Position numbers and translations under genes: made by a program
DNA from: a virus
Virus record (IMG/VR): IMGVR_UViG_3300008108_000034
Location: 1-64,000 of that record
DNA length: 64,000 nucleotides
Reading direction: 5' to 3' (one strand)
Notes under the pieces: generated by a model
Database searches by the model: none
Seen by the model: the letters and a program-made list of their open reading frames with translations, nothing else
Told to the model about the DNA's origin: nothing
Shown here: one piece after another, positions 27,298-64,000 of the stretch
Numbering within the stretch: position 1 is the stretch's first letter
Layout of the letters: each line of letters begins with the position of its first letter

Positions 27298-27462
27298 TCA
27301 ATGCTCGCCGTAATGACAAGGCATCACCTTTGCTTTTGGATTGGTATTGGGGGTGACACCCTTGCTACCTGGAGTTGTTTGAACTGAAACTTTCTTGTTC
27401 AGTCCTACGAATGTTCCATTACTACCTGGAACCTTCTGCACTGTTGCCTTTGGATTTTTCAT
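27298..27462 (-). CDS. Small basic protein (54 aa, not in ORF track) with internal repeats
   Basis: Manual translation MKNPKATVQKVPGSNGTFVGLNKKVSVQTTPGSKGVTPNTNPKAKVMPCHYGEH; starts 2 nt after the upstream stop. Confidence 0.7.
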   Translation of the reverse strand: MKNPKATVQKVPGSNGTFVGLNKKVSVQTTPGSKGVTPNTNPKAKVMPCHYGEH

Positions 27463-27464
27463 GA

Positions 27465-27617
27465 TTACATTCCTTTTTTAACCATTCCTGCATTTTTGTA
27501 AGAGCCACCCATTTTTTTGGATGGTACAGCTTTCATGGGGACTTTGTTTTTTCCTTTGGTACCACCTTTTCCCATTAGGTTACCACCCATTCCTTTTTTT
27601 GGTTTTGTAATTGCCAT
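27465..27617 (-). CDS. Small K/G/M-rich protein (50 aa, not in ORF track)
   Basis: Manual translation MAITKPKKGMGGNLMGKGGTKGKNKVPMKAVPSKKMGGSYKNAGMVKKGM. Confidence 0.75.
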   Translation of the reverse strand: MAITKPKKGMGGNLMGKGGTKGKNKVPMKAVPSKKMGGSYKNAGMVKKGM

Positions 27618-27623
27618 TGTTTT

Positions 27624-27959
27624 GATTTTTAATTAGTTAGTATTATTTATTTTTGTTTTTCTTGGTGGATCCGCCTTTTTTTAGTCTAGGTTGTAGATCA
27701 CTTATTTTATAAGGATAAGTTTTACCCTCTTGACGATATCGCTCCATTTGACCCATTCTATTTACCGCTTCACGCCTACCTTGGATTTCATAATTCTTCT
27801 TTTCCTCATCTGTTGCTACCATTGAAGGCTTTTTTAAAAGTTGTTGACCAGCATCTTGAAACTTTTTGAGTTTAGTTCCTTTTTTTATAGCAGTGCCTGC
27901 TGCTGATTTTTTCATTTTAGTTTTCATTTATACAGATTTTTAATTGGTTAGTATTATTT
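27624..27959 (-). repeat. 25-bp direct repeat at two gene junctions (27624-27648 and 27935-27959)
   Basis: Minus strand AAATAATACTAAC(T/C)AATTAAAAATC, one mismatch; each copy spans a stop codon and the next leader. Confidence 0.85.
27643..27927 (-). CDS. Small basic protein
   Basis: Lys-rich; contains LKKFQ and LKKGG motifs. Confidence 0.75.
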   Translation of the reverse strand: MKTKMKKSAAGTAIKKGTKLKKFQDAGQQLLKKPSMVATDEEKKNYEIQGRREAVNRMGQMERYRQEGKTYPYKISDLQPRLKKGGSTKKNKNK

Positions 27960-28229
27960 CTTTTTGGATTTCTTAGCACCTGCGATACGATCTGCAGCAG
28001 TTGCTTTATCATAAGGGGGAGCCAAAGCAGCGAAACGCTTAGTTTTGGTGGTACCACCTTTAGCATACATTGCATAGTTACTCATGGTATCACCAGAGAT
28101 AGCGACAGGCTTCTTGGGTGAACGAGTGTTCATCACAGCTTTTACGCTGGTTCCTGCTGTCTTTGCAGTGGATGATCCTTTGCTCTTGCGAGCAGGACTG
28201 ACTTTTGCTTTTGATTTGTTGCTTGCCAT
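27954..28229 (-). CDS. Small basic K/A/S-rich protein
   Basis: Histone H1-like composition; YAKGG and FAALAPPYDK.T.ADRIAGA motifs. Confidence 0.75.
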   Translation of the reverse strand: MASNKSKAKVSPARKSKGSSTAKTAGTSVKAVMNTRSPKKPVAISGDTMSNYAMYAKGGTTKTKRFAALAPPYDKATAADRIAGAKKSKKK

Positions 28230-28231
28230 TG

Positions 28232-28420
28232 TTATTTCTTTTTACGCATTTTACCTAATGTTTGAGCAAGCGCCGCTTGACGCTTGGTTCGAGTGCTTGC
28301 CTTGCTACCCTCTTTAAGAACGCTCTTTGCATATGCACTCACTGACTTACCTGCTGCTTTCGCTTTGGCTGTGAATGCACCTGGACGCTTGATAGCTTTC
28401 TGGATCCACTTCTCAGCCAT
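28232..28420 (-). CDS. Small basic phage protein
   Basis: KWIQKAIKRPGAFTAKAK...RQAALAQTL motif. Confidence 0.8.
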   Translation of the reverse strand: MAEKWIQKAIKRPGAFTAKAKAAGKSVSAYAKSVLKEGSKASTRTKRQAALAQTLGKMRKKK

Positions 28421-28421
28421 G

Positions 28422-28622
28422 TTATTTCTTTTTTGGAGGATTGGTTATACCACCCATAACCGCTTTTTGTAAGTCTTCGGTTGCTTTTAATACTTCACGC
28501 ATCAAACCTTTATCCTTCTGGATATCGGCTGCACGCTTCAGAGTATCCATCGCAGACTGAACTTTCCAGTTACGTTCCTCTTTGGACATCTGAATCTTGG
28601 GTGTCGATTTTGTCTTTGCCAT
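28422..28622 (-). CDS. Small basic protein
   Basis: 66 aa, tightly packed in the array. Confidence 0.75.
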   Translation of the reverse strand: MAKTKSTPKIQMSKEERNWKVQSAMDTLKRAADIQKDKGLMREVLKATEDLQKAVMGGITNPPKKK

Positions 28623-28649
28623 GTTGGTTGGTTTTGGGTGTAAATATAA

Positions 28650-28931
28650 TTAGCAATTCCATTTTCGCAAAGACTTGTTTATCCTTGAGTTAGGATCATT
28701 GGCTGTCTTTGCTGAAGTCAACTTGGCTTTCATACCTTTCATCCTGGAACAGAATGACTTACGTCGTTTTGCGTCCTTACTCCCCTTCTTGATTTTGGAA
28801 GGTTTGGTGGTTACTGCAGTCTGCAGTTTGCTACCAGGATTTGCTCTACGATATGAAGCAACACCTTTAGCATTGAGACCCCCTTTGGGATCCTTGCCTT
28901 CCTTACGCTGCCAACTTGGTGTTTTTGCCAT
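28650..28931 (-). CDS. DUF6321-like small basic phage protein
   Basis: WQRKEGKDPKGGLNAKGVASYRRANPGSKL...RRKSFCSRM...SRINKSLRKWNC. Confidence 0.8.
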   Translation of the reverse strand: MAKTPSWQRKEGKDPKGGLNAKGVASYRRANPGSKLQTAVTTKPSKIKKGSKDAKRRKSFCSRMKGMKAKLTSAKTANDPNSRINKSLRKWNC

Positions 28932-29170
28932 TACTTCTTCTTTTTGTATTTGTAATCAGGGTTGTCCTTATGCCATTTCTTGGTGGAGGCAACCCCCTGT
29001 TTGACTGTCTTTGCCTTACCTATCTTGGTAAGATTGATGGTATCCCACTTACCTTTATCCTTGGTAGGATGGTTGACCATGATATCTCCAGGCTCGCCTT
29101 TACCACGCTTGTTGGTCTTCTTGTAGACCACATGCTTCTCACCGCCAGCTGTAACCTTGGTCTTCTTCAT
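28931..29170 (-). CDS. Small basic protein
   Basis: 79 aa, Lys-rich, translationally coupled. Confidence 0.75.
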   Translation of the reverse strand: MKKTKVTAGGEKHVVYKKTNKRGKGEPGDIMVNHPTKDKGKWDTINLTKIGKAKTVKQGVASTKKWHKDNPDYKYKKKK

Positions 29171-29328
29171 TTCTTTTTTGAAGCTGCCTTGATCTTACGC
29201 TCCTGCTTGAGCATCTGTTTAGTGGGTTTCTTACCTGAACCTTTGTTGGCGCGGATGTTGTCCCACAATCCTCGTTGGGAGTAGGATCCATCAGCACGCT
29301 TGATCATTTGTTTCTTTTTTACGGACAT
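29167..29328 (-). CDS. Small basic protein (53 aa, not in ORF track)
   Basis: Manual translation MSVKKKQMIKRADGSYSQRGLWDNIRANKGSGKKPTKQMLKQERKIKAASKKK; ATGA overlap downstream. Confidence 0.75.
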   Translation of the reverse strand: MSVKKKQMIKRADGSYSQRGLWDNIRANKGSGKKPTKQMLKQERKIKAASKKK

Positions 29329-30857
29329 GGTATTTGAGTAAAGCTATATGTAGTTGCAGTAAGTGGAGAAGACACTGATGGAGCAACAAATGAACCAGCT
29401 CCTGCGGTATATGCATTGTATACAGTGATCCTATAATCAAAGATATCAGTGAAGTCTACAACAACATAACAAGCTGGTCCATAAAGAGAGGAATATATCT
29501 GAGTAAGAATAGATGTGGCTGTTACAGTATCAGCTAGATCTACATATCCTCCTCCATTGAAATCAGTAAGATTTATGGTAGATACATCATTCAATCTATC
29601 TATGTATTGATCAAATGCTGGTATGATGACCTCCATGCAACCAGGATCACAGGACGATGAAATAGTATTGTATACGGTCTTATCAGTATATGGACCACTT
29701 GGTTCCACATATATTGGTAGAATATCTGCATAACTGACCGATGTAAACACCAATATCACATAGACCTGGGAAAATGAAGAATCATAGTACGCCAAGACAT
29801 TACATCCATATGTTGAAGCTATTGTTGTTGTCCATGTTGCAGGATCATCGGCAGGAAGTCCATCAACAGTTTCACCACTTCCTACAGAAATTACAAATGC
29901 ATAACAGCTGGCACATGGTGTGTCGCAACTGGTTACATAACTTTCACCGTCAAAATTTGGAGTACCTCCGCCTATTTTTACTGATACAAATTTAGCAGGT
30001 CTTGCACAAGTGTATGCTCCACATATGACTGTATAAAACTCTCCTGTGGTTCCATTTTGAGCATTTGTCTGTATAAGAGTTATTTGAGGACCACTTATAG
30101 CTCTTGCAATTTGCTGGACTTGATCAAAATTGTCAATCCTTACAGGAAGAGTTAAATTAACAGCAAGTGCTGCAACATAACCTGTATTTGAACTAAATTG
30201 AAAAGAGGTAAACTCAATATCTGACGGAGATGTTCCGCCTCTAAATAGCCACGGAGTAAGGTTTTCTGGACTTATATAAGTAGGATTGCACGTTACTCCT
30301 GGTAAAAACTCAATTGGGAAAGTTGTTACATTGGAATTAACATCAAACGTAACAGACCAATTGGGTACGGATGTTGTATTGATGTACAATATAAGTTTAA
30401 ATGTTGCAGAAGTTGGAGTAGAAGAAGTTGTATATAAAACACCCCATGTATCGTAACCTAAATCCTGTAAATCTGTAAATACCCTTTCCCAAATGTTTGT
30501 TGTTAGAACAGTGCTGGTATCCACATCTGTTATAGTAACGGTTCCTGAGTAAACTAACGATAAATTATCAGTTACAGTTGCGTTATTTGATGTATAAACA
30601 CAAGGTGGCTCGAAGGATATGCAGTTATAGATCAAGCTCTTCTTCCAGGGGTATATCATGTACTTGTACTTCCCGCTGTTTAGAAGACGCCAGGCTGCAT
30701 CAGGCTGGTTGTTGTCCCCATAGACCACAAGCTTTTCATACAGCTTGCGCATCTCACGCTGAGTCCAATTATTGACACCACCCCTAGGACCTCTCCAAGG
30801 CATAGATCGCATCTGCATGATGCAGTTCCATAACTGTTCTTTTTCAGCAGGTGTCAT
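29319..30857 (-). CDS. Putative virion structural/decoration protein (beta-rich, Thr/Ser/Cys-containing)
   Basis: 512 aa in the late region; charged N-terminal ~85 aa, then a T/S/Y/V-rich body. Confidence 0.6.
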   Translation of the reverse strand: MTPAEKEQLWNCIMQMRSMPWRGPRGGVNNWTQREMRKLYEKLVVYGDNNQPDAAWRLLNSGKYKYMIYPWKKSLIYNCISFEPPCVYTSNNATVTDNLSLVYSGTVTITDVDTSTVLTTNIWERVFTDLQDLGYDTWGVLYTTSSTPTSATFKLILYINTTSVPNWSVTFDVNSNVTTFPIEFLPGVTCNPTYISPENLTPWLFRGGTSPSDIEFTSFQFSSNTGYVAALAVNLTLPVRIDNFDQVQQIARAISGPQITLIQTNAQNGTTGEFYTVICGAYTCARPAKFVSVKIGGGTPNFDGESYVTSCDTPCASCYAFVISVGSGETVDGLPADDPATWTTTIASTYGCNVLAYYDSSFSQVYVILVFTSVSYADILPIYVEPSGPYTDKTVYNTISSSCDPGCMEVIIPAFDQYIDRLNDVSTINLTDFNGGGYVDLADTVTATSILTQIYSSLYGPACYVVVDFTDIFDYRITVYNAYTAGAGSFVAPSVSSPLTATTYSFTQIPCP

Positions 30858-30997
30858 CTACCTTGTCCTCTATATGCTTTTTTATACAACTTGCTGGACT
30901 TCAGCTTACTAGACTTAGTCTTAGCATGAATACCAGGTCTATTGACCTCTTTCTTAACAACCGTCCTTACGGATTCTGATTTCTTAGGCTTTGCCAT
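30854..30997 (-). CDS. Small basic protein (47 aa, not in ORF track)
   Basis: Manual translation MAKPKKSESVRTVVKKEVNRPGIHAKTKSSKLKSSKLYKKAYRGQGR; ATGA overlap with the next gene. Confidence 0.8.
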   Translation of the reverse strand: MAKPKKSESVRTVVKKEVNRPGIHAKTKSSKLKSSKLYKKAYRGQGR

Positions 30998-57408: not shown

Positions 57409-60400
57409 CTATGAAAGAATTCCTGGAAATCGATAAGGAATGTAATTAGGTTGATGTTTCTGTTGCCTTTCTATCTCAATGAGTTTTATCAAATCAGCAT
57501 CCGGAATTCCCTTACCTCTATATTTATCATACAGATCAAAAGAATTTGATGATCCAGTACCTGTGAATGATCCAGGTACAAACATACCACCGTATCCAGG
57601 AATGTATTTGAAGTTTTCTTCCCTCATGTTTGTAGAAGTAAGATTCGTTGCGTTGGTATCACCCTGCATAAATGCTTTTCTTGCTTCCCTATCCATCGCA
57701 AGTTGTTCATTTGCATACTGCTGCTCGTTGGTTGCAACACCTGCAATGTAATCCTTTTTGTTCTGAGCATTATAGATCTGCTCCTTCATGCCTATTTCGG
57801 TGTTTACCTTTCCAGCCTCATTGATTATTCCAGTGTTTCTTGCCTCATTCTGCGCCATTATATCCGCTGTCTTGTCTCCCATCTGACCTGCTACTCCTGA
57901 TTGCATCGCTCTAAGGACTGCGGGATTTGCAGTTACACCTGTCATTTCACTCATGGCAGTTGCTCCTGCACCTTGTACACCTGCAACTTGTCTTGCAATG
58001 GCTTCAAGATTATATGGAACACGTCCGAAGTTGGCGTTTATGTCAGCAGGACCTTTTGACTTGTAAGGTCTGTCACCAAGTGCACCGTAAAAATTGTACA
58101 GATCACCTTGCATCCACAATGCAGGAATGTTCATTGGAGGTTGCCAATTGGGTTTACGAGTATCACAAAGGGGTTGAGCACCAGTGACAGGATCACAAGG
58201 AACTTCTTTCATTGTGTTACCTGTGGGATCAACAGTGTAATCAGGACACTGGCATTTTTTTACTGGAGGATTAGTAGGAGGATTAGTAGGAGGATTAGTA
58301 GGAGGAGAAGTGGGTACGTCTTCTAGATTGATGAACTTCTGAGTACCTGCAATCTCCTTACCATAGTTCCATGCTCCTTCCTTACTTGCATCAACAAGTT
58401 CTGGCATGTCCTTGATTTCATCCGCGGTAAACCCTTTATTTAGAAGATAATCAGTGTTGATTTTTCTGACTTGTTGATTCACCCATTGATTTGCAGCCTG
58501 ATGTTTTTTAAGTTTATCGCTTGGATTTGTTTTTGCAGAACGAATATCCTCCTTGTACTGTCTCATACCTTCAGCTTCATTTCCACCAGCGGTTCCATAT
58601 TGACCAAAATTAACACCATTGGCTTTAAGATATTCAATCTGACTGTCTACACCTTTCCAACCACTTCCTGGGGAGTAGATATCACCTAGTCCTGTTACCC
58701 TACCACTTGCATCCTTTATTTCAGGAACAAGCGTACCTTCTGAACCCCATGTGTATCCTGTAGATGCTGTTTGATGTCCCACACCTGATTCTTTAGCAGC
58801 ATATGGTGCTCTTATCAGATTGAGTTTATATTGTGGCTTTTGTGCAATTAGATTATTAATCCATTGTGCATACGCATCATCTGCAATATCGTATTCAGGT
58901 CCATTTTGATATTTCGGCAAATCTTTTTCACCTCCGTCTGCATATGAATCCTCAGCTTCAACCATGGTGTTTTCTATGGGATCATATATGAAAATAGAAC
59001 CTCCTCTTTTCTTCTTAGGTGCAACATAGGTTGCAGGACTTCTCCTTAGTTCTTGCATTATGCTGTCTATTTCTGCCTGGTCAATATAACCTTTGGCCAT
59101 AATTGATTGTCTCAATTCATCATCACTTACCCTTGCAGGTGCATTGTTCACTGGAGGATTTGTAACAGGTGCTGTGGTCAAAGGAGCAGTCACAGGAACA
59201 GAGTCGGCAGTAGTAAGGGTAGCCGGAACAGGATATAAAGACGAATCAGGTGATACAAATTGACCATTTCCTAATGAATCAAGAGAAACAAGACCTGTTG
59301 TATCTTGTTGCACCACAGCATCATCTTGAAGTCCGCCTCTATATAATCCTGTTTCAGGATTGGCAAGTCTGTGACCAAGGTAACCAAGTCCACCAAGTCC
59401 TACTGCTCCTGCTCCTGACCAACCTAAGTAAGGAACACTTTCTTTAAGTATTTTTTTTGCAGCAGATTCAGATGGTAATGAAATGTTTAATCCAGGAAGT
59501 CTTCCTGCAGTATTGCGCCATGCGTATCCTAAAGGTGATCTTATCTTTGTTTCTGGAAATTGCAATGCAAGTTCCTCAACCGGTATATCTTCAGCAGTAG
59601 TTAAAAGATTTCCTATGCTTCTATTATATGAGTTTGGACCAAACTGATCCGCGGCATCAACCGCTTTTCTCACATTTTCAAAAGCAGATTGTTGCGCTGG
59701 AGTAAGTGCATATTGAGGATGATTTAGTTTTATAAGATCCATTACATCAATGTCTTGCAGTCTATTATTAAACCCACTCCAGAATGGATCATTGAATATT
59801 TCTCGTACAGTTTCAATGTCTTTAGTCAATTGTTCTTTTCCACCAACACTTTCAAACGCACGATTGGGTTTTTTAACAAGAGAAGGAGTACCTTCTCCAG
59901 TTACAAAACCTCTAGTACTTGGATGTCTTTTTCCTCCAAAAGTCTTACCTTCAAACCTATACTTTACTTTTGAAAGATCTCCTGGAAGAGATTCTGCTAC
60001 ATTAAGAGTTCTTCCAGCTTCATCCGCAATGTCTCCATACATCACATATGCGCTTTTAGGATTAGCGGTTGTAAAATATCTTGGAATACGATTTGTGAAA
60101 AGTGCCATCGTACCTAATCCTACTCCCGCACCTGCTCCTGCGAATTCACCAGGTGTTGTAAGTGGAAATCCACTCATCATGTAACCTAATTCAGGATTGG
60201 CTCTCAATGCTTGAGTCGCTCTTCCAAGACCAGCAGCACCTTCTCCGATTCTACTACCGAGATTTAAAGCTTGAGCACTTTTACTTAATCCTGGAAGTAA
60301 TCCAAGAGTCGGATCCATCATGATATCACCCATCACACCTTGTCCTGAAGGACGTCCCCTCAATGCATCGGAAAATCCGTATTCACCTGTACCTGACAGT

Positions 60401-61632
60401 TGATCAGCTCCTGCCTGCATAAGTCTTGATGGGATTGCAAAAGGAGCAAGTGTACTCAAAGGTGTGTTGTACATTTCAGCTTCTTCAGGACTAAGACCAG
60501 GTGCAACCTGATCACCAGGTATCATGCTGTATAAACCTTGGATACCTTGACTACCTAAACCAGGTTCAGTTAAGAAACCATATTGACTGTTGCGTAACAT
60601 CTCAAACTGCTCAGGACCAAGCTCTTGCATTGCTTTAAGTCTGTTGCCACGCAACATTGTCTTAAGGTCAGGATTTGCTTGAAACAGTTTGTTAAAGTAA
60701 TTGGTGTTTACAGCTCGCTGCCATTTTTCAGCCATTCCTGGATTAGCAAGAATATCTCTTTTGGAATATCCTTGCAATAGGTTTGCACCTGGTTGGTTCG
60801 CAAGCCACTCATTAAAGTCAAGAAGATTTGAAGGTGTGCTTGCAGTAACGTCAACCTCTGGAAGATTTACGTATGGCAGTACCCCACTTGGATTTTTCTC
60901 AAAATTTGGAACAGCTCTGGTTACAACAGGATTATATTCTTGTGGTCCTACAGGTCCAAAGTCTTGATGGATTGGTAAAACTTTTCCTCCACGACGCATG
61001 ATCTGTCCACCGAACTTGGCTTGAGGAGGTCCTTGTTGAGCAGGACTCTGTACAGCAATGTCTTTATTGAACAGAGGTTGTGATATGAATGGAACACCAT
61101 CAGGGAATCCTTTCATACCTTCCTGTACCAATGCAAGCTGACCCAGTTTGGTCATGTTATTGTCAATCATGTACTGGGCGGTCTTCTTGTCGAGGTAGTC
61201 AGAATTAGGATCATTCAATATCTCAAAGTACCTGTTCAGGTCGTACCGCTTGGCGACCATTGCAGGAGTCACCGATTTGTTGGTATTGTATCCAAAGACA
61301 CCCTTCAAAAGCTCTTTGTTCTTGATATTCAATGCTCTAGTGTCTGAAAACACAAAGCTTCCGTCAGGAACATTCAGAGGAGTACCGCCTTCACTGTGTC
61401 GTTTTCCACCGACAATAGTGTGCATGATGTTTCCATCCTTGTCTGGCCATACTACGGTCTCGTTCTTTTCAGCTTCAATGGTCGCCTCATCCCTGGGTAT
61501 TGGACTCAGTGTATCCTTTACCTGATTGGTGGTAGCTTTATCCTCGTAATTCCAAATACTTCCGGTTACAAGTCCGTAGTTGCGCTGGTCACCCATGCTA
61601 CCACCCCTGACTCGGTTTATCTTTACTTTCAT
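57409..61632 (-). CDS. Virion cargo protein with a conserved-looking N-terminal EAE...RHSEGG domain and xxGG motifs
   Basis: EAEKNETV, GGKRHSEGGTPL and FVFSD; low-complexity Pro/Thr linkers; Gly-rich hydrophobic stretches. Confidence 0.7.
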   Translation of the reverse strand: MKVKINRVRGGSMGDQRNYGLVTGSIWNYEDKATTNQVKDTLSPIPRDEATIEAEKNETVVWPDKDGNIMHTIVGGKRHSEGGTPLNVPDGSFVFSDTRALNIKNKELLKGVFGYNTNKSVTPAMVAKRYDLNRYFEILNDPNSDYLDKKTAQYMIDNNMTKLGQLALVQEGMKGFPDGVPFISQPLFNKDIAVQSPAQQGPPQAKFGGQIMRRGGKVLPIHQDFGPVGPQEYNPVVTRAVPNFEKNPSGVLPYVNLPEVDVTASTPSNLLDFNEWLANQPGANLLQGYSKRDILANPGMAEKWQRAVNTNYFNKLFQANPDLKTMLRGNRLKAMQELGPEQFEMLRNSQYGFLTEPGLGSQGIQGLYSMIPGDQVAPGLSPEEAEMYNTPLSTLAPFAIPSRLMQAGADQLSGTGEYGFSDALRGRPSGQGVMGDIMMDPTLGLLPGLSKSAQALNLGSRIGEGAAGLGRATQALRANPELGYMMSGFPLTTPGEFAGAGAGVGLGTMALFTNRIPRYFTTANPKSAYVMYGDIADEAGRTLNVAESLPGDLSKVKYRFEGKTFGGKRHPSTRGFVTGEGTPSLVKKPNRAFESVGGKEQLTKDIETVREIFNDPFWSGFNNRLQDIDVMDLIKLNHPQYALTPAQQSAFENVRKAVDAADQFGPNSYNRSIGNLLTTAEDIPVEELALQFPETKIRSPLGYAWRNTAGRLPGLNISLPSESAAKKILKESVPYLGWSGAGAVGLGGLGYLGHRLANPETGLYRGGLQDDAVVQQDTTGLVSLDSLGNGQFVSPDSSLYPVPATLTTADSVPVTAPLTTAPVTNPPVNNAPARVSDDELRQSIMAKGYIDQAEIDSIMQELRRSPATYVAPKKKRGGSIFIYDPIENTMVEAEDSYADGGEKDLPKYQNGPEYDIADDAYAQWINNLIAQKPQYKLNLIRAPYAAKESGVGHQTASTGYTWGSEGTLVPEIKDASGRVTGLGDIYSPGSGWKGVDSQIEYLKANGVNFGQYGTAGGNEAEGMRQYKEDIRSAKTNPSDKLKKHQAANQWVNQQVRKINTDYLLNKGFTADEIKDMPELVDASKEGAWNYGKEIAGTQKFINLEDVPTSPPTNPPTNPPTNPPVKKCQCPDYTVDPTGNTMKEVPCDPVTGAQPLCDTRKPNWQPPMNIPALWMQGDLYNFYGALGDRPYKSKGPADINANFGRVPYNLEAIARQVAGVQGAGATAMSEMTGVTANPAVLRAMQSGVAGQMGDKTADIMAQNEARNTGIINEAGKVNTEIGMKEQIYNAQNKKDYIAGVATNEQQYANEQLAMDREARKAFMQGDTNATNLTSTNMREENFKYIPGYGGMFVPGSFTGTGSSNSFDLYDKYRGKGIPDADLIKLIEIERQQKHQPNYIPYRFPGILS
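58265..58306 (-). repeat. 12-bp tandem repeat (3.5 copies) encoding PPTN repeats
   Basis: GGAGGATTAGTA x3 plus GGAGGA on the + strand. Confidence 0.9.
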
Positions 61633-61698
61633 GCTTTTTGGAAATTTATTTGTTGCTGAACCTCACTTACTTAAATATACTAATTTTCCGTGAAGATA

Positions 61699-63999
61699 TC
61701 AAATTAACTCCACGTCCCAACCTGCTTTGATAAGTTCACGTACAGTGTCGATATCAAGATCGTACTCACCACCAGATTCAAACATGGTACCTCCGATTCT
61801 TGCGTTTATAGGTTGCAAAGGACTATTGGGATTCATCCAACTCTTAGGCATTGTACCTTCTTGTAAGGATGTACTTTGCATACTCAATCCTGGTTTCTGC
61901 ACCTGAGCAAACATGTTGGGTTGATTCAAGTTACCCTGTGTCGGATTGAGAAGAGCCTTACCCATCATTTGACTCGTATTCTGTTGAGGCTGAGCTATGT
62001 TCAATGTGTTGAATGCAGAAAGCTTTTCATCTTTTCTCTGTTGTTTTCCAGCATTTATGTCTTGTAAAAAATTACCCATTGCACTTAGTGAATACATAGC
62101 CTGTTGTGCACCTACATGATTGTAACCTAATGAATCAGGACACGAACCATCACCATCACAAGAAGGACATGTACCATCACTACAGGGTTTCATGTTCTTT
62201 GTTACATTTCCATCTTTGTCTTTACACTCGCAAGCTGCATCAGGGTTACTTGGATTAGAAGCATCATTACCTCCAACACCACCGTCAGTTTGAAAACTAG
62301 GAAGACTAGGCATTCCACCATTAGCCATGATCATTGATGGAATTCTTCCAACATTCGTAGCAAACTTTCCAATTTCTTTTGCACCCCCTGTGATACCTTG
62401 TACGGTTTGCTGTCCAACATTGAAAGCATGATAAGGCATTGTCAAAGCGTTCAAAAGCGGATTCTTTTTAATGTGTCCTGCTACACCTGCGGCAACCTGT
62501 TGATTTTTTGCAAGATTTGCATACTTGGCATAATCAAAGTTGGTATAAGGTGATGTGGTTTGTTTGTTATCGCTACCAGATGTTCCTGCACCAGATGTTC
62601 CAGATTGTGTTCCTGTAGTAGTTGTAGTAGTAGTAGGTGTTCCAGATTGCGTTGAGGTAGTGGGTCCTGTACCAGTTGTTCCAGTGTTTGTAGCTGTAGA
62701 TTGAGTTGATGTAGTTCCAGTGTTTGCAGTTGTAGATTGATTTGTTAAATCTATTACTGTAAGATTAGGCGGAGGAGTTACACCATAATACTTACCAGTA
62801 TTTTGATATTTATCCCAAGATTGTCCATATTCTTTCCAAAGAGTAGCTGCATCATTTTGACCTGGTCTTGTATATAGGTAACCAGGATAATTACCTGTTT
62901 GATCTGCATAATTATTTTTTGTCCATGTTGTAAATGCAGTTTCTTCAGGACTACCTGATGCAAATGGATAATCAATAATCTTATCTGATACTCCAGGCTG
63001 TGAGTTCTTGTCTTGAAACTTCATCAAGCCTCCGTTCTTCATCAAGTAATCCTTGAACTCCATGCCACTCAATGAACCCCCTCTTTTCTTCTTGGGGTTG
63101 ATATTCAGACCACCTCTCTTCATCACATTGTAAATCATTGAAGGATCAAACTGACCTCCGAACTGATCACCGCCTTCCTTGAACATGAAGTTAGGTCTGG
63201 TCTCTCCCTTACGATCATAAGGTAGGTACGTCTGAGCTTGTGGGAACGCCTCTCCTCCTGATGCATACTGGGTACCGCTGTAACCCGCCCATGTCAATGG
63301 ATATGTGTTTGCCTGAGGAAAAGCTTCACCACCATCGCGTTGTTGTTGAGCTGCTTTGATTTCAACTGGATCAATGTTCATAGGAACATAATCCACAAGC
63401 TGGTCACCATAATATTTTACTCCCTGTACGTACTTGTTTACACCTTCTCCAAGTATTGATCCTTTTTTCTCACGACTTGATTTGTCACTTCTAGCCAACC
63501 AACCTTGTTGGTTTATCAAATATGGTAGAAAGTCAAGATAATTCTCTCGTGTAAGATTCTCCTTGTTACCTGATTTCGCACGGTTTCTCAACTGACTAAC
63601 GTTCTCCGCAAGAAACCTCATTGCAATATCAGATGATTTTACAGGATCGTATATGGAATCAAGCACATCTCGTTCATCTGATGGATATAGTTTCCTTGTT
63701 TTATCAGATAGACTTCCATAGTTCGTCTGAAAAGGTCCGAGACTTTTATTCCAAACCCAGGACTTAGGCATGATATACGAAAACAATTTGTTTTCAGGAA
63801 GCTTTAGTCCTGACTGATAATCAGTGCCTCCTTGCGATTCCATCATATACTGACCCATCATTGTCTTGATCATGGCATTATACTCATCATTGCTGATGTT
63901 ATAATCCTTCATTATCATCTTCTTGTACTCAGGGTCATTTACCTGGTTTAATATTTCAGGTATTCTACTCTCAGATAAATTTATATTCTCATCACCTTC
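61699..63999 (-). CDS. Virion cargo protein (5'-truncated by the window) with a lytic-transglycosylase-like domain and multiple xxGG motifs
   Basis: The frame stays open to the window end. MMESQGG / SLGPFQ / YDPVKS motif series; T/G/S-rich linker at ~62570-62740; C-terminal GGEYDLD...LIKAGWDVELI. Confidence 0.7.
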   Translation of the reverse strand, partial: EGDENINLSESRIPEILNQVNDPEYKKMIMKDYNISNDEYNAMIKTMMGQYMMESQGGTDYQSGLKLPENKLFSYIMPKSWVWNKSLGPFQTNYGSLSDKTRKLYPSDERDVLDSIYDPVKSSDIAMRFLAENVSQLRNRAKSGNKENLTRENYLDFLPYLINQQGWLARSDKSSREKKGSILGEGVNKYVQGVKYYGDQLVDYVPMNIDPVEIKAAQQQRDGGEAFPQANTYPLTWAGYSGTQYASGGEAFPQAQTYLPYDRKGETRPNFMFKEGGDQFGGQFDPSMIYNVMKRGGLNINPKKKRGGSLSGMEFKDYLMKNGGLMKFQDKNSQPGVSDKIIDYPFASGSPEETAFTTWTKNNYADQTGNYPGYLYTRPGQNDAATLWKEYGQSWDKYQNTGKYYGVTPPPNLTVIDLTNQSTTANTGTTSTQSTATNTGTTGTGPTTSTQSGTPTTTTTTTGTQSGTSGAGTSGSDNKQTTSPYTNFDYAKYANLAKNQQVAAGVAGHIKKNPLLNALTMPYHAFNVGQQTVQGITGGAKEIGKFATNVGRIPSMIMANGGMPSLPSFQTDGGVGGNDASNPSNPDAACECKDKDGNVTKNMKPCSDGTCPSCDGDGSCPDSLGYNHVGAQQAMYSLSAMGNFLQDINAGKQQRKDEKLSAFNTLNIAQPQQNTSQMMGKALLNPTQGNLNQPNMFAQVQKPGLSMQSTSLQEGTMPKSWMNPNSPLQPINARIGGTMFESGGEYDLDIDTVRELIKAGWDVELI

Positions 64000-64000
64000 T

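What the first reader, a model, noticed from the sequence alone, without database searches (positions are those of the whole stretch)
57409..63918. Recurrent (hydrophobic/basic)-x-x-GG motif shared by cargo and small basic proteins: candidate packaging or protease signal
Seen: the last ORF has QRDGG, YASGG, FKEGG, MKRGG, KKRGG, MKNGG, MANGG, ARIGG and FESGG. The 1407-aa ORF has AKFGG, MRRGG, KKRGG and YADGG. The small basic proteins have LKKGG, YAKGG, KGMGG, MGKGG and KKMGG. Several are followed by a second element (LPKYQ, LMKFQ, LPSFQ, LPIHQ), and LKKFQ also occurs in one small protein. The motifs cluster at boundaries between unrelated-looking segments. Known: adenovirus protease cleaves (M/I/L)xGG and ASFV polyproteins are cut after GG to mature core proteins. 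Inference: a common capsid-targeting tag or maturation-protease site that lets modular payloads be loaded into the head.
Basis: partly seen in the sequence, partly recalled or inferred. Interest (0 to 1): 0.8.

Follow-up and report, generated by a model that had tools for sequence, protein, structure and literature searches.

The report
Gly-Gly/LPKxQ seam peptide in phage cargo
Three large proteins that this uncultured crAss-like phage probably injects are strings of swappable modules joined by one short conserved Gly-Gly/LPKxQ peptide; the peptide is real and I found no description of it in the papers searched, but nothing shows it is cut or is a packaging tag.

Summary
GG alone is not enriched, and the loose "(hydrophobic/basic)-x-x-GG" rule only weakly. 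A sharper two-part motif is strongly enriched: Phi-[KR]-x-G-G, then 0-4 residues, then L-P-K-[A/H/Y]-Q-x-G. It occurs 7 times against 0.1 expected, and only in the three proteins encoded just after the muzzle gene (855, 1265 and 1407 aa).

The same box recurs in about 50 related uncultured phages. In two complete 125-kb relatives it is found only in those same proteins. It lies in predicted disordered linkers at homology breakpoints between exchangeable modules. Its copies use different codons.

The motif is not significant in the small basic proteins. However, one of them is a module that other phages embed in cargo proteins, bracketed by GG on both sides.

No protease was found. Eight families are absent from complete relatives, and the papain-like module is NlpC/P60-like and missing from the relatives searched.

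The 1407-aa N-domain weakly resembles the portal-bound domain of crAss001 cargo protein C1.

Best reading: an uncut hinge-and-anchor seam (about 0.4). Cleavage site is the main rival (about 0.25).

This scan has already noted the same motif on other genomes.

The parts
57409..61632 (-). 1407-aa cargo protein (P0001): conserved N-domain, seam box 1, variable middle with Gly/Ala-rich hydrophobic stretches, seam box 2, conserved C-terminal region
   Evidence: Homologues share residues 1-228 at 60-78% identity, then diverge.
61033..61632 (-). N-domain (residues 1-200), a candidate portal-binding domain
   Evidence: AF2 gives pLDDT 72-89 for residues 36-186. The top VIA hit is crAss001 gp45 residues 435-551 in the portal assembly 7qog_M (Z 5.5, rmsd 4.0, 93 aligned, 20% identity). 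hhalign is not significant.
60964..61020 (-). Seam box 1: AKFGG - MRRGG - KV - LPIHQ
   Evidence: G215 and G216 are invariant in 32 homologues inside an otherwise variable linker. pLDDT is about 33.
58906..59013 (-). Seam box 2: KKRGG ... YADGG - EKD - LPKYQ
   Evidence: A conserved 'KxxGGxxLxxYQxxG' appears in the family consensus and in P0003 and L006.
61699..64000 (-). C-terminal 766 aa of the 1265-aa cargo protein (P0047; the gene runs to 65496, beyond the window)
63013..63342 (-). Cluster of seam elements: QRDGG-EAFPQANTY, YASGG-EAFPQAQTY, FKEGG, MKRGG, KKRGG, MKNGG-LMKFQ
   Evidence: GGEAFPQAQTYL is identical in five related phages. The two copies here differ at 10 of 11 codons.
62290..62328 (-). 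Seam box MANGG - MPS - LPSFQ
61702..61803 (-). ARIGG / FESGG followed by a conserved C-terminal mini-domain (EYDLDIDTVRELIKAGWDVELI)
   Evidence: The protein upstream of the N-domain protein ends with [YF]xEGG-EYxxSxEELxxILxxGGxIEY in most of the related loci inspected; 27 such C-termini were collected by pattern.
29167..29328 (-). 53-aa basic protein (MIKRADGSYSQRGLWDNIRANKGSGKKPTK...). In other phages it is a module embedded in cargo proteins.
   Evidence: 91-92% identical in G1 and G2. It is embedded in large cargo ORFs of 11 other loci; in ten it is bracketed by x[KR]xGG on both sides, and in L077 it sits at the N-terminus with GG only downstream.
27298..29170 (-). Eight further small basic genes. 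They carry LKKGG, LKKFQ, YAKGG, KGMGG, MGKGG and KKMGG.
   Evidence: Seven have homologues in G1 and/or G2 at 52-98% identity; the 94-aa gene has none. The GG sites are mostly kept in the orthologues. The motif count is not above shuffles.

Best explanation
The element is a two-part seam peptide of the C1-like ejection ('cargo') proteins of a large uncultured clade of crAss-related phages.

Part 1 is Phi-[KR]-x-G-G and closes a module. Part 2 is L-P-K-[A/H/Y]-Q-x-G(G), 0-4 residues later, and opens the next module. It is also found alone near native N-termini.

The three proteins encoded after the muzzle gene are strings of exchangeable modules joined by these peptides in disordered linkers. 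The modules include:
- a candidate portal-binding domain;
- a permuted NlpC/P60 domain with a PG-binding domain;
- an SLT-like region;
- a kinase-like region;
- small basic peptides.

Most likely the peptide is not cut. GG would act as a hinge. The LPKxQ part would act as an anchor that docks on a repeated virion partner, such as the portal wing or the tail-barrel rings. The chain of modules would then be held in register and could be threaded out through the tail, as proposed for crAss001 gp45.

Shown here: the motif, its restriction to these proteins, its position at seams, the predicted disorder, and peptide-level selection. Inferred: the hinge/anchor role and the partner.
For: - Enrichment only in the three post-muzzle proteins.
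- 70 distinct instances (75 counted in non-redundant ORFs) across 53 related loci, all in same-strand large ORFs.
- In the complete relatives G1 and G2, the box is only in the 2-3 post-muzzle proteins, out of 121 and 127 ORFs.
- The box is an island of conservation inside a variable linker.
- pLDDT is below 50 at the boxes in two AF2 models.
- The borders of a mobile 315-aa module coincide with boxes in dozens of proteins.
- Homology breakpoints are enriched 2-2.5 fold within 5 aa of a GG.
- Motif copies differ at synonymous sites.
- The LPKxQ half stands alone near N-termini, and GG..WLxKY stands at C-termini, which fits a docking peptide better than a cleavage site.
- Pro follows GG in some boxes.
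- No protease gene was found.
- The N-domain's top structural match is the portal-bound domain of crAss001 C1. In gp45, Phi-x-x-GG strings (FSAYGG, AFGGWLNTQGG, MFAYGG) lie just before the tail-bound segment, at the start of the portal-bound segment and about ten residues after its end.
Against: - No partner is identified and no binding is shown.
- The match to gp45 is weak (Z 5.5) and not significant by hhalign.
- crAss001 itself lacks the LPKxQ element.
- The 53-aa basic module is a free protein here but is GG-bracketed inside large proteins elsewhere. That is what a cleaved polyprotein would look like.
- The free form carries no GG flanks, so GG serves the junction rather than docking of that module.
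- A plain hinge does not need such a specific flanking sequence.
Confidence: 0.4

Rival explanations
1. The boxes are maturation cleavage sites. The three proteins would be polyproteins cut after GG (or within the box) by an unrecognised phage protease or a host protease, releasing modules such as the small basic peptide.
For: - Modules end in Phi-[KR]-x-GG with one- or two-residue precision.
- The 53-aa protein, free in this phage, is bracketed by GG on both sides when embedded elsewhere.
- Internal copies of the N-domain keep their Met 5-7 residues after a FAExGG in P0036, P0037 and P0041; in P0038-40 a zinc ribbon lies between.
- The sites lie in disordered linkers.
- Short N-terminal leaders end in GG.
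- By established knowledge, papain-like viral proteases often cut after GG.
Against: - No S78, ClpP, S49, C39, C48 or C97 in complete relatives. The C5 and S77 searches were uninformative because their controls did not ring.
- The papain-like module is closest to the PG hydrolase TseH (Z 8.7), with DeSI-1 only at Z 5.1. It is absent from G1, G2 and the 53 loci.
- GG-to-LP spacing varies.
- Tandem clusters would yield 5-28-aa scraps.
- Pro follows GG in 3 of 58 full boxes.
- C-terminal partial boxes exist.
- The crAss001 study reports no processing of gp45.
Confidence: 0.25
2. The boxes act after ejection, in the host envelope. They might bind peptidoglycan, a membrane or a periplasmic host factor, or help the threaded modules refold.
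For: The motif is limited to the proteins that carry cell-wall enzymes and hydrophobic Gly/Ala-rich segments. It is absent from the cytoplasm-bound RNAP-type giants.
Against: There is no similarity to any known PG- or membrane-binding repeat (Pfam found none). This reading is purely inferential.
Confidence: 0.1
3. There is no specific function. The pattern would reflect linker composition plus shared ancestry or recombination scars of shuffled modules.
For: The modules are clearly mosaic between phages. The linkers are rich in Gly and Lys.
Against: - Local-composition shuffles never reach the observed counts.
- GG is invariant across 32 homologues while the flanks vary.
- Copies differ at nearly all synonymous sites, so this is not DNA-level repeat homology.
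- The same box flanks unrelated modules.
Confidence: 0.1

Closest known systems
Cargo protein C1 (gp45) of Bacteroides phage crAss001 (Bayfield et al. 2023, PMC10172136; PDB 7qog)
   Same: - Encoded directly after the muzzle gene.
- Long, partly disordered virion protein with a Gly/Ala-rich hydrophobic segment.
- Separate segments are docked on the tail-barrel rings and on the portal.
- The 1407-aa N-domain's top structural match is gp45 435-551, with shared GG-x-H-x-E and [FY]VFSD strings.
- gp45 has Phi-x-x-GG strings just before the tail-bound segment, at the start of the portal-bound segment and about ten residues after its end.
   Different: - gp45 has no LPKxQ element.
- There is no significant sequence similarity and no Pfam hit.
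- Here the role is spread over three proteins with enzyme modules.
Ejection (internal core) proteins of podoviruses: T7 gp14/15/16, P22 gp7/16/20
   Same: Virion-packed proteins ejected before the DNA. They include a cell-wall hydrolase module and membrane segments (own knowledge and PMC10172136).
   Different: To my knowledge no conserved junction peptide or module shuffling has been described for them.
GG-directed viral maturation proteases (adenovirus adenain, ASFV pS273R, coronavirus PLpro)
   Same: A short motif ending in Gly-Gly at the junctions of polyprotein modules.
   Different: - P4 here is K/R, not M/I/L or L.
- No such protease gene was found.
- A second LPKxQ element follows at variable spacing.
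- Cleavage has not been shown.
T4 internal-protein capsid targeting sequence (CTS)
   Same: A short N-terminal peptide shared by unrelated packaged proteins. The LPKxQ half occurs within the first 10-40 residues of several cargo proteins.
   Different: The CTS is strictly N-terminal and is removed by gp21 at LxE. Here most copies are internal, and no S77 protease was seen (control silent).
Junction motifs of polymorphic toxins (CdiA VENN, Rhs PxxxxDPxGL, MuF-toxin fusions)
   Same: A conserved domain, then a short conserved motif, then a variable exchangeable payload.
   Different: Here there are several junctions per protein, on both sides of modules. The payloads are mostly cell-wall enzymes and structural modules, and no immunity genes were seen.

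Membership tests
crAss001 C1 (gp45)-type cargo protein | Gene directly downstream of the muzzle gene, same strand | tested here: met
   The muzzle hits PF25731 at 68062-72903 and ring proteins R1/R2 lie upstream. The 855, 1265 and 1407-aa genes follow it. G1 and G2 have the same order.
crAss001 C1 (gp45)-type cargo protein | Portal-bound compact domain (gp45 425-552) | tested here: inconclusive
   It is the top VIA hit out of 48,161 chains, but only Z 5.5, rmsd 4.0, 93 aligned, 20% identity. hhalign gives probability 0.7%.
crAss001 C1 (gp45)-type cargo protein | Sequence-family membership (Pfam/PHROG model) | tested here: not met
   No Pfam or PHROG cargo family hit for the 1265- and 1407-aa proteins; the 855-aa protein hits only PG_binding_1 and weak endolysin PHROGs.
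Adenain-type cleavage site (M/I/L)-X-G-G|X | M/I/L at P4 | tested here: not met
   In 70 boxes P4 is K/R in 42. The hydrophobic or aromatic residue is at P5.
Adenain-type cleavage site (M/I/L)-X-G-G|X | Cognate C5 protease encoded | tested here: inconclusive
   PF00770 has no match in 5 complete relatives, but the control genomes did not ring either.
Adenain-type cleavage site (M/I/L)-X-G-G|X | Cleavage after GG in virions | not testable with these tools
   No cultured member was found in the phage collection, so no proteomics exist to consult.
Ulp1/SENP or PPPDE (DeSI) GG-specific cysteine protease system | C48 or C97 protease encoded | tested here: not met
   PF02902 and PF05903 have no match in the own contig or in 4 complete relatives. 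The permuted papain-like module of the 855-aa protein matches TseH at Z 8.7 and DeSI-1 at only Z 5.1. That module is absent from G1, G2 and the 53 loci.
Double-glycine leader / C39 peptidase export | N-terminal 15-30-aa leader ending in GG, plus a C39 peptidase | tested here: not met
   Most boxes are internal. PF03412 is absent from 5 complete relatives, and the control rang in 7 genomes.
Prohead-protease processed internal proteins (T4 CTS, phiKZ inner body) | Prohead protease gene (S77, S78, ClpP, S49) | tested here: not met
   No match for PF04586, PF00574 or PF01343, with controls ringing. PF03420 also had no match, but its control was silent.

The most novel reading that the evidence does not exclude
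The boxes are processing sites of a virion polyprotein system. crAss-related phages would pack three polyproteins and cut them at Gly-Gly seams with a protease of an unrecognised family (or a host enzyme). This would release enzymes, a portal-bound plug and small basic peptides, with LPKxQ left as an N-terminal sorting tag. Tailed phages would then have a GG-directed maturation pathway, so far known from adenoviruses, ASFV and RNA viruses.
Probability: 0.22. Interest if true: 0.8.

Novelty: new variant of a known kind. Interest (0 to 1): 0.6.

Why it matters
How crAss-like phages load, order and eject their protein cargo is an open question. A single conserved peptide that marks every seam of the first-ejected proteins gives a concrete handle on it. 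It predicts where modules can be swapped. It gives sites to mutate, or to look for in virion mass spectra. It names candidate contacts with the portal and tail barrel. It also lets the module content of these very large 'hypothetical' proteins be parsed automatically in many uncultured phage genomes. If the peptide turned out to be cut, that would be, as far as I know, a new maturation route for tailed phages.

Tried and rejected
- **GG enrichment as such:** rejected.
- **Motif shared with small basic proteins, by statistics:** not supported. The link is by homology and fusion instead.
It is absent from G1, G2 and the 53 motif-bearing loci. Rejected as a universal protease.
- **Canonical proteases S78, ClpP, S77, C5, C39, C48, C97, S49:** none found.
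- **DNA-level repeat or recombination handle:** rejected, because the copies differ at synonymous sites.
- **Same motif in other phages:** the GG-LPxxQ box was not seen in phi4:1, Fpv1, Lbo-JY46 or csAssE-Sib around the muzzle gene, and crAss001 gp44-50 have no LPKxQ-type element (one chance IKGFQ).
- **Close relatives of the two proteins:** none in the phage record collection. None in IMG/VR with a single-sequence query; the alignment query worked.
- **Fold of the N-domain by Foldseek:** no match.
- **Profile against PDB sequences:** only low-complexity noise.
- **C-terminal mini-domain against gp45:** hhalign picks gp45 573-590, but E is 0.21, not significant.
- **Literature search for LPKAQ:** nothing relevant.
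Full report
**Context.** The window is the first 64 kb of a 79,319-bp viral contig that CheckV rates about 65% complete.
- The plus strand from 1 to 21 kb carries a replication module: family-B DNA polymerase, DnaB-type helicase, primase and exonuclease.
- The minus strand carries crAss hallmarks: muzzle protein (PF25731) and ring proteins R1 and R2 (PF24228, PF25702), with a lysozyme gene next to R2.
- Downstream of the muzzle gene lie seven large ORFs of 855, 1265, 1407, 944, 1656, 3860 and 2271 aa.
Its '1407-aa ORF' is 57409-61632.
- The small basic proteins lie at 27298-29328 and 30854-30997.

**Checking the observation.** All quoted words are present in those ORFs. GG as a dipeptide is at expectation: 13 observed against 15.1 expected in the 1407-aa protein, and 18 against 11.8 in the 1265-aa protein.

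For the three post-muzzle proteins taken together, against local-composition shuffles:

| Pattern | Observed | Expected |
|---|---|---|
| [KR]-x-GG | 13 | 3.3 |
| Phi-[KR]-x-GG | 11 | 1.5 |
| [LIF][PKMV]x[YFHA]Q | 11 | 1.0 |
| Joined GG-x(0-4)-LPxxQ box | 7 | 0.1 |

None of 300 shuffles reaches any of these counts. The RNAP-type giants, the structural proteins and the replication proteins show nothing. The small basic proteins are not significant.

**Relatives.** The two proteins have no relative in the phage record collection. A protein search found 43 homologues of the 1407-aa protein. They share only residues 1-228 at 60-78% identity, and some also share the C-terminal part. At the end of this N-domain a variable linker leads to an invariant GG inside M-[KR]-[KR]-G-G-[LIV]-V-K-[YHA]-Q-x-x-G. 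After that the sequences diverge.

An alignment-based scan of IMG/VR gave 53 loci.
- They hold 70 distinct boxes (75 counted in non-redundant ORFs), all in large same-strand ORFs.
- The consensus is [YMAKF]-[KR]-x-G-G-x(0-2)-L-P-K-[AHY]-Q-x-G-G.
- None lies within 60 aa of a C-terminus, and a few lie within the first 40 residues.
- Loci that failed the strict pattern still carry variants such as AKYGG..KYQxGG.
- In a wider set, 91 of 93 N-domain proteins have a GG within 110 aa of the domain end.

In two complete 125-kb relatives with terminal repeats, the box occurs only in the two or three proteins after the muzzle gene, out of 121 and 127 ORFs. The GG-LPxxQ box was not seen in phi4:1, Fpv1, Lbo-JY46 or csAssE-Sib around the muzzle gene. 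crAss001 gp44-50 have no LPKxQ-type element, apart from one chance IKGFQ in gp44.

**The boxes sit at module seams.**
- AF2 models place them in low-confidence, presumably disordered segments next to well-folded domains. The 1407-aa protein has pLDDT about 33 for residues 187-240. The 855-aa protein is below 50 for residues 1-27 and 340-355.
- Residues 25-340 of the 855-aa protein form a mobile module. It is found at any position in proteins of 232 to about 2600 aa.
- In many of these proteins a ..GG-x-LPKAQ-x-G(G) lies just upstream of the module and a WQxKNKK..GG just downstream. Stand-alone versions keep a short N-terminal K[YFH]QxGG.
- Across 176 cargo-region proteins, BLAST breakpoints lie within 5 aa of a GG in 20% of module starts and 25% of module ends, against 10% for random positions. 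These breakpoints are not independent, so the figures show a trend rather than a probability.
- Modules are mosaic between phages. Parts of the 1265-aa protein sit in a different one of the three proteins in G2, and the kinase-like half of the 855-aa protein sits in a 2230-aa protein of L009.

**Selection acts on the peptide.** The two GGEAFPQA(N/Q)TY copies differ at 10 of 11 codons, and the other boxes also use different codons.

**Small basic proteins.** Nine of the ten have homologues in G1 and/or G2, at 52-98% identity; five are 85-98% identical in both. This is above most other proteins compared, which run at about 39-74%. The 53-aa protein at 29167-29328 is embedded as a roughly 42-aa module in large cargo ORFs of eleven other loci. 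In ten of them it is bracketed on both sides by x[KR]xGG, often with the module's Met kept; in L077 it lies at the N-terminus, with GG only downstream. The 79-aa and 62-aa proteins have similar embedded copies.

**Search for a protease.** Pfam models of S78, ClpP, S49, C39, C48 and C97 find nothing in complete relatives, although their controls ring. C5 and S77 also find nothing, but their controls are silent.

- Its model (mean pLDDT 82.8) matches the permuted papain-like fold. The best match is the peptidoglycan hydrolase TseH (Z 8.7, rmsd 3.6, 130 aligned), followed by YiiX (7.7) and RID (7.6). DeSI-1 reaches only Z 5.1.
- It carries a PG_binding_1 domain.
- It is absent from G1, G2 and the 53 box-bearing loci.
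- Among nine loci chosen by this module, only the crAss-type ones carry the N-domain (L074, L076, L079), and two of these carry full boxes (L074, L076).

It is therefore a cell-wall enzyme payload and not the general protease.

**Link to crAss001.** The N-domain has no Foldseek match. In the exhaustive VIA search its top hit is chain M of 7qog, residues 435-551 (Z 5.5, rmsd 4.0, 93 aligned, 20% identity). By its residue numbers this chain is taken to be gp45, whose residues 425-552 are the portal-bound domain of cargo protein C1 (PMC10172136). The score is modest and hhalign finds nothing significant. The two do share GG-x-H-x-E and [FY]VFSD strings.

In gp45, FSAYGG lies just before the tail-barrel-bound segment (214-245). 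AFGGWLNTQGG opens the portal-bound segment. MFAYGG lies about ten residues after its end. The crAss001 authors model gp45 as one chain threaded through the portal and report no processing.

**Weighing the readings.**
- *For an uncut hinge-and-anchor seam:*
  - lone LPKxQ near native N-termini;
  - partial boxes (GG...WLxKY) at C-termini;
  - variable spacing;
  - tandem clusters;
  - Pro after GG in some boxes;
  - no protease;
  - the crAss001 precedent.
- *For cleavage:*
  - the precision of GG at module ends;
  - the free-versus-embedded small basic module.

I put the uncut seam at about 0.4 and cleavage at about 0.25. A role after ejection and a null explanation get about 0.1 each.

**Novelty.** I found no description of the box in the papers searched. 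This scan has already noted the same motif in other genomes, and follow-up agents there reached similar conclusions. My results agree with theirs. They add the embedded small basic module, the exclusion of the papain-like module, the wider protease search and the codon evidence.

Noticed in passing
L001:5498-8065 (contig 65498-68065, beyond the window): The 855-aa protein has a protein-kinase-like stretch after a Gly/Ala-rich hydrophobic segment: a glycine loop IGGGGYGQAY, then VLKV, DFQGDNLM and LIDL. Its homologue sits in a 2230-aa protein of L009.
   Followed up: no
window 58160-58260 and 62180-62280, approximately: Both the 1407-aa and 1265-aa proteins carry a short Cys-rich mini-domain (CxC...C...C) after a Pro/Thr- or Ser/Thr-rich linker, ahead of their C-terminal regions.
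   Followed up: no
P0036-P0044: Where the N-domain sits inside longer proteins it keeps its initial Met (..MKIRITGG..), and in P0036, P0037 and P0041 that Met lies 5-7 residues after a FAExGG. This points to recent gene fusion or an internal start.
   Followed up: partly
L050:9902 (940-aa ORF) and L048:610: Some cargo proteins end with ..GGSRKLRKVRIKKAPR or ..GGSVRKVKIKSLPRNTQ. These copy the N-terminal M-R-K-V-R-I-K-x-LPK.. of the N-domain family. One protein has the string at both ends.
   Followed up: no
window 27643-27927 (-): The 94-aa basic protein that carries both LKKFQ and LKKGG has no homologue in G1 or G2, although its neighbours are 52-98% identical there.
   Followed up: no
window 28650-28931 (-): The 93-aa basic protein matches Pfam DUF6321 (E 2e-21) and is 92-98% identical in G1 and G2.
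   Followed up: no
P0308: One N-domain protein with the box is labelled in UniRef as coming from Arenimonas sp. (Gammaproteobacteria). This may be a hint about hosts or about a prophage or contaminant.
   Followed up: no
window 61702-61782 and crAss001 gp45 573-590: The C-terminal mini-domain (EYxxSxEELxxIL..) of the 1265-aa family aligns by hhalign to gp45 EDPMSVEELEALMVQSGE, just after MFAYGG. E is 0.21, so this is not significant.
   Followed up: partly
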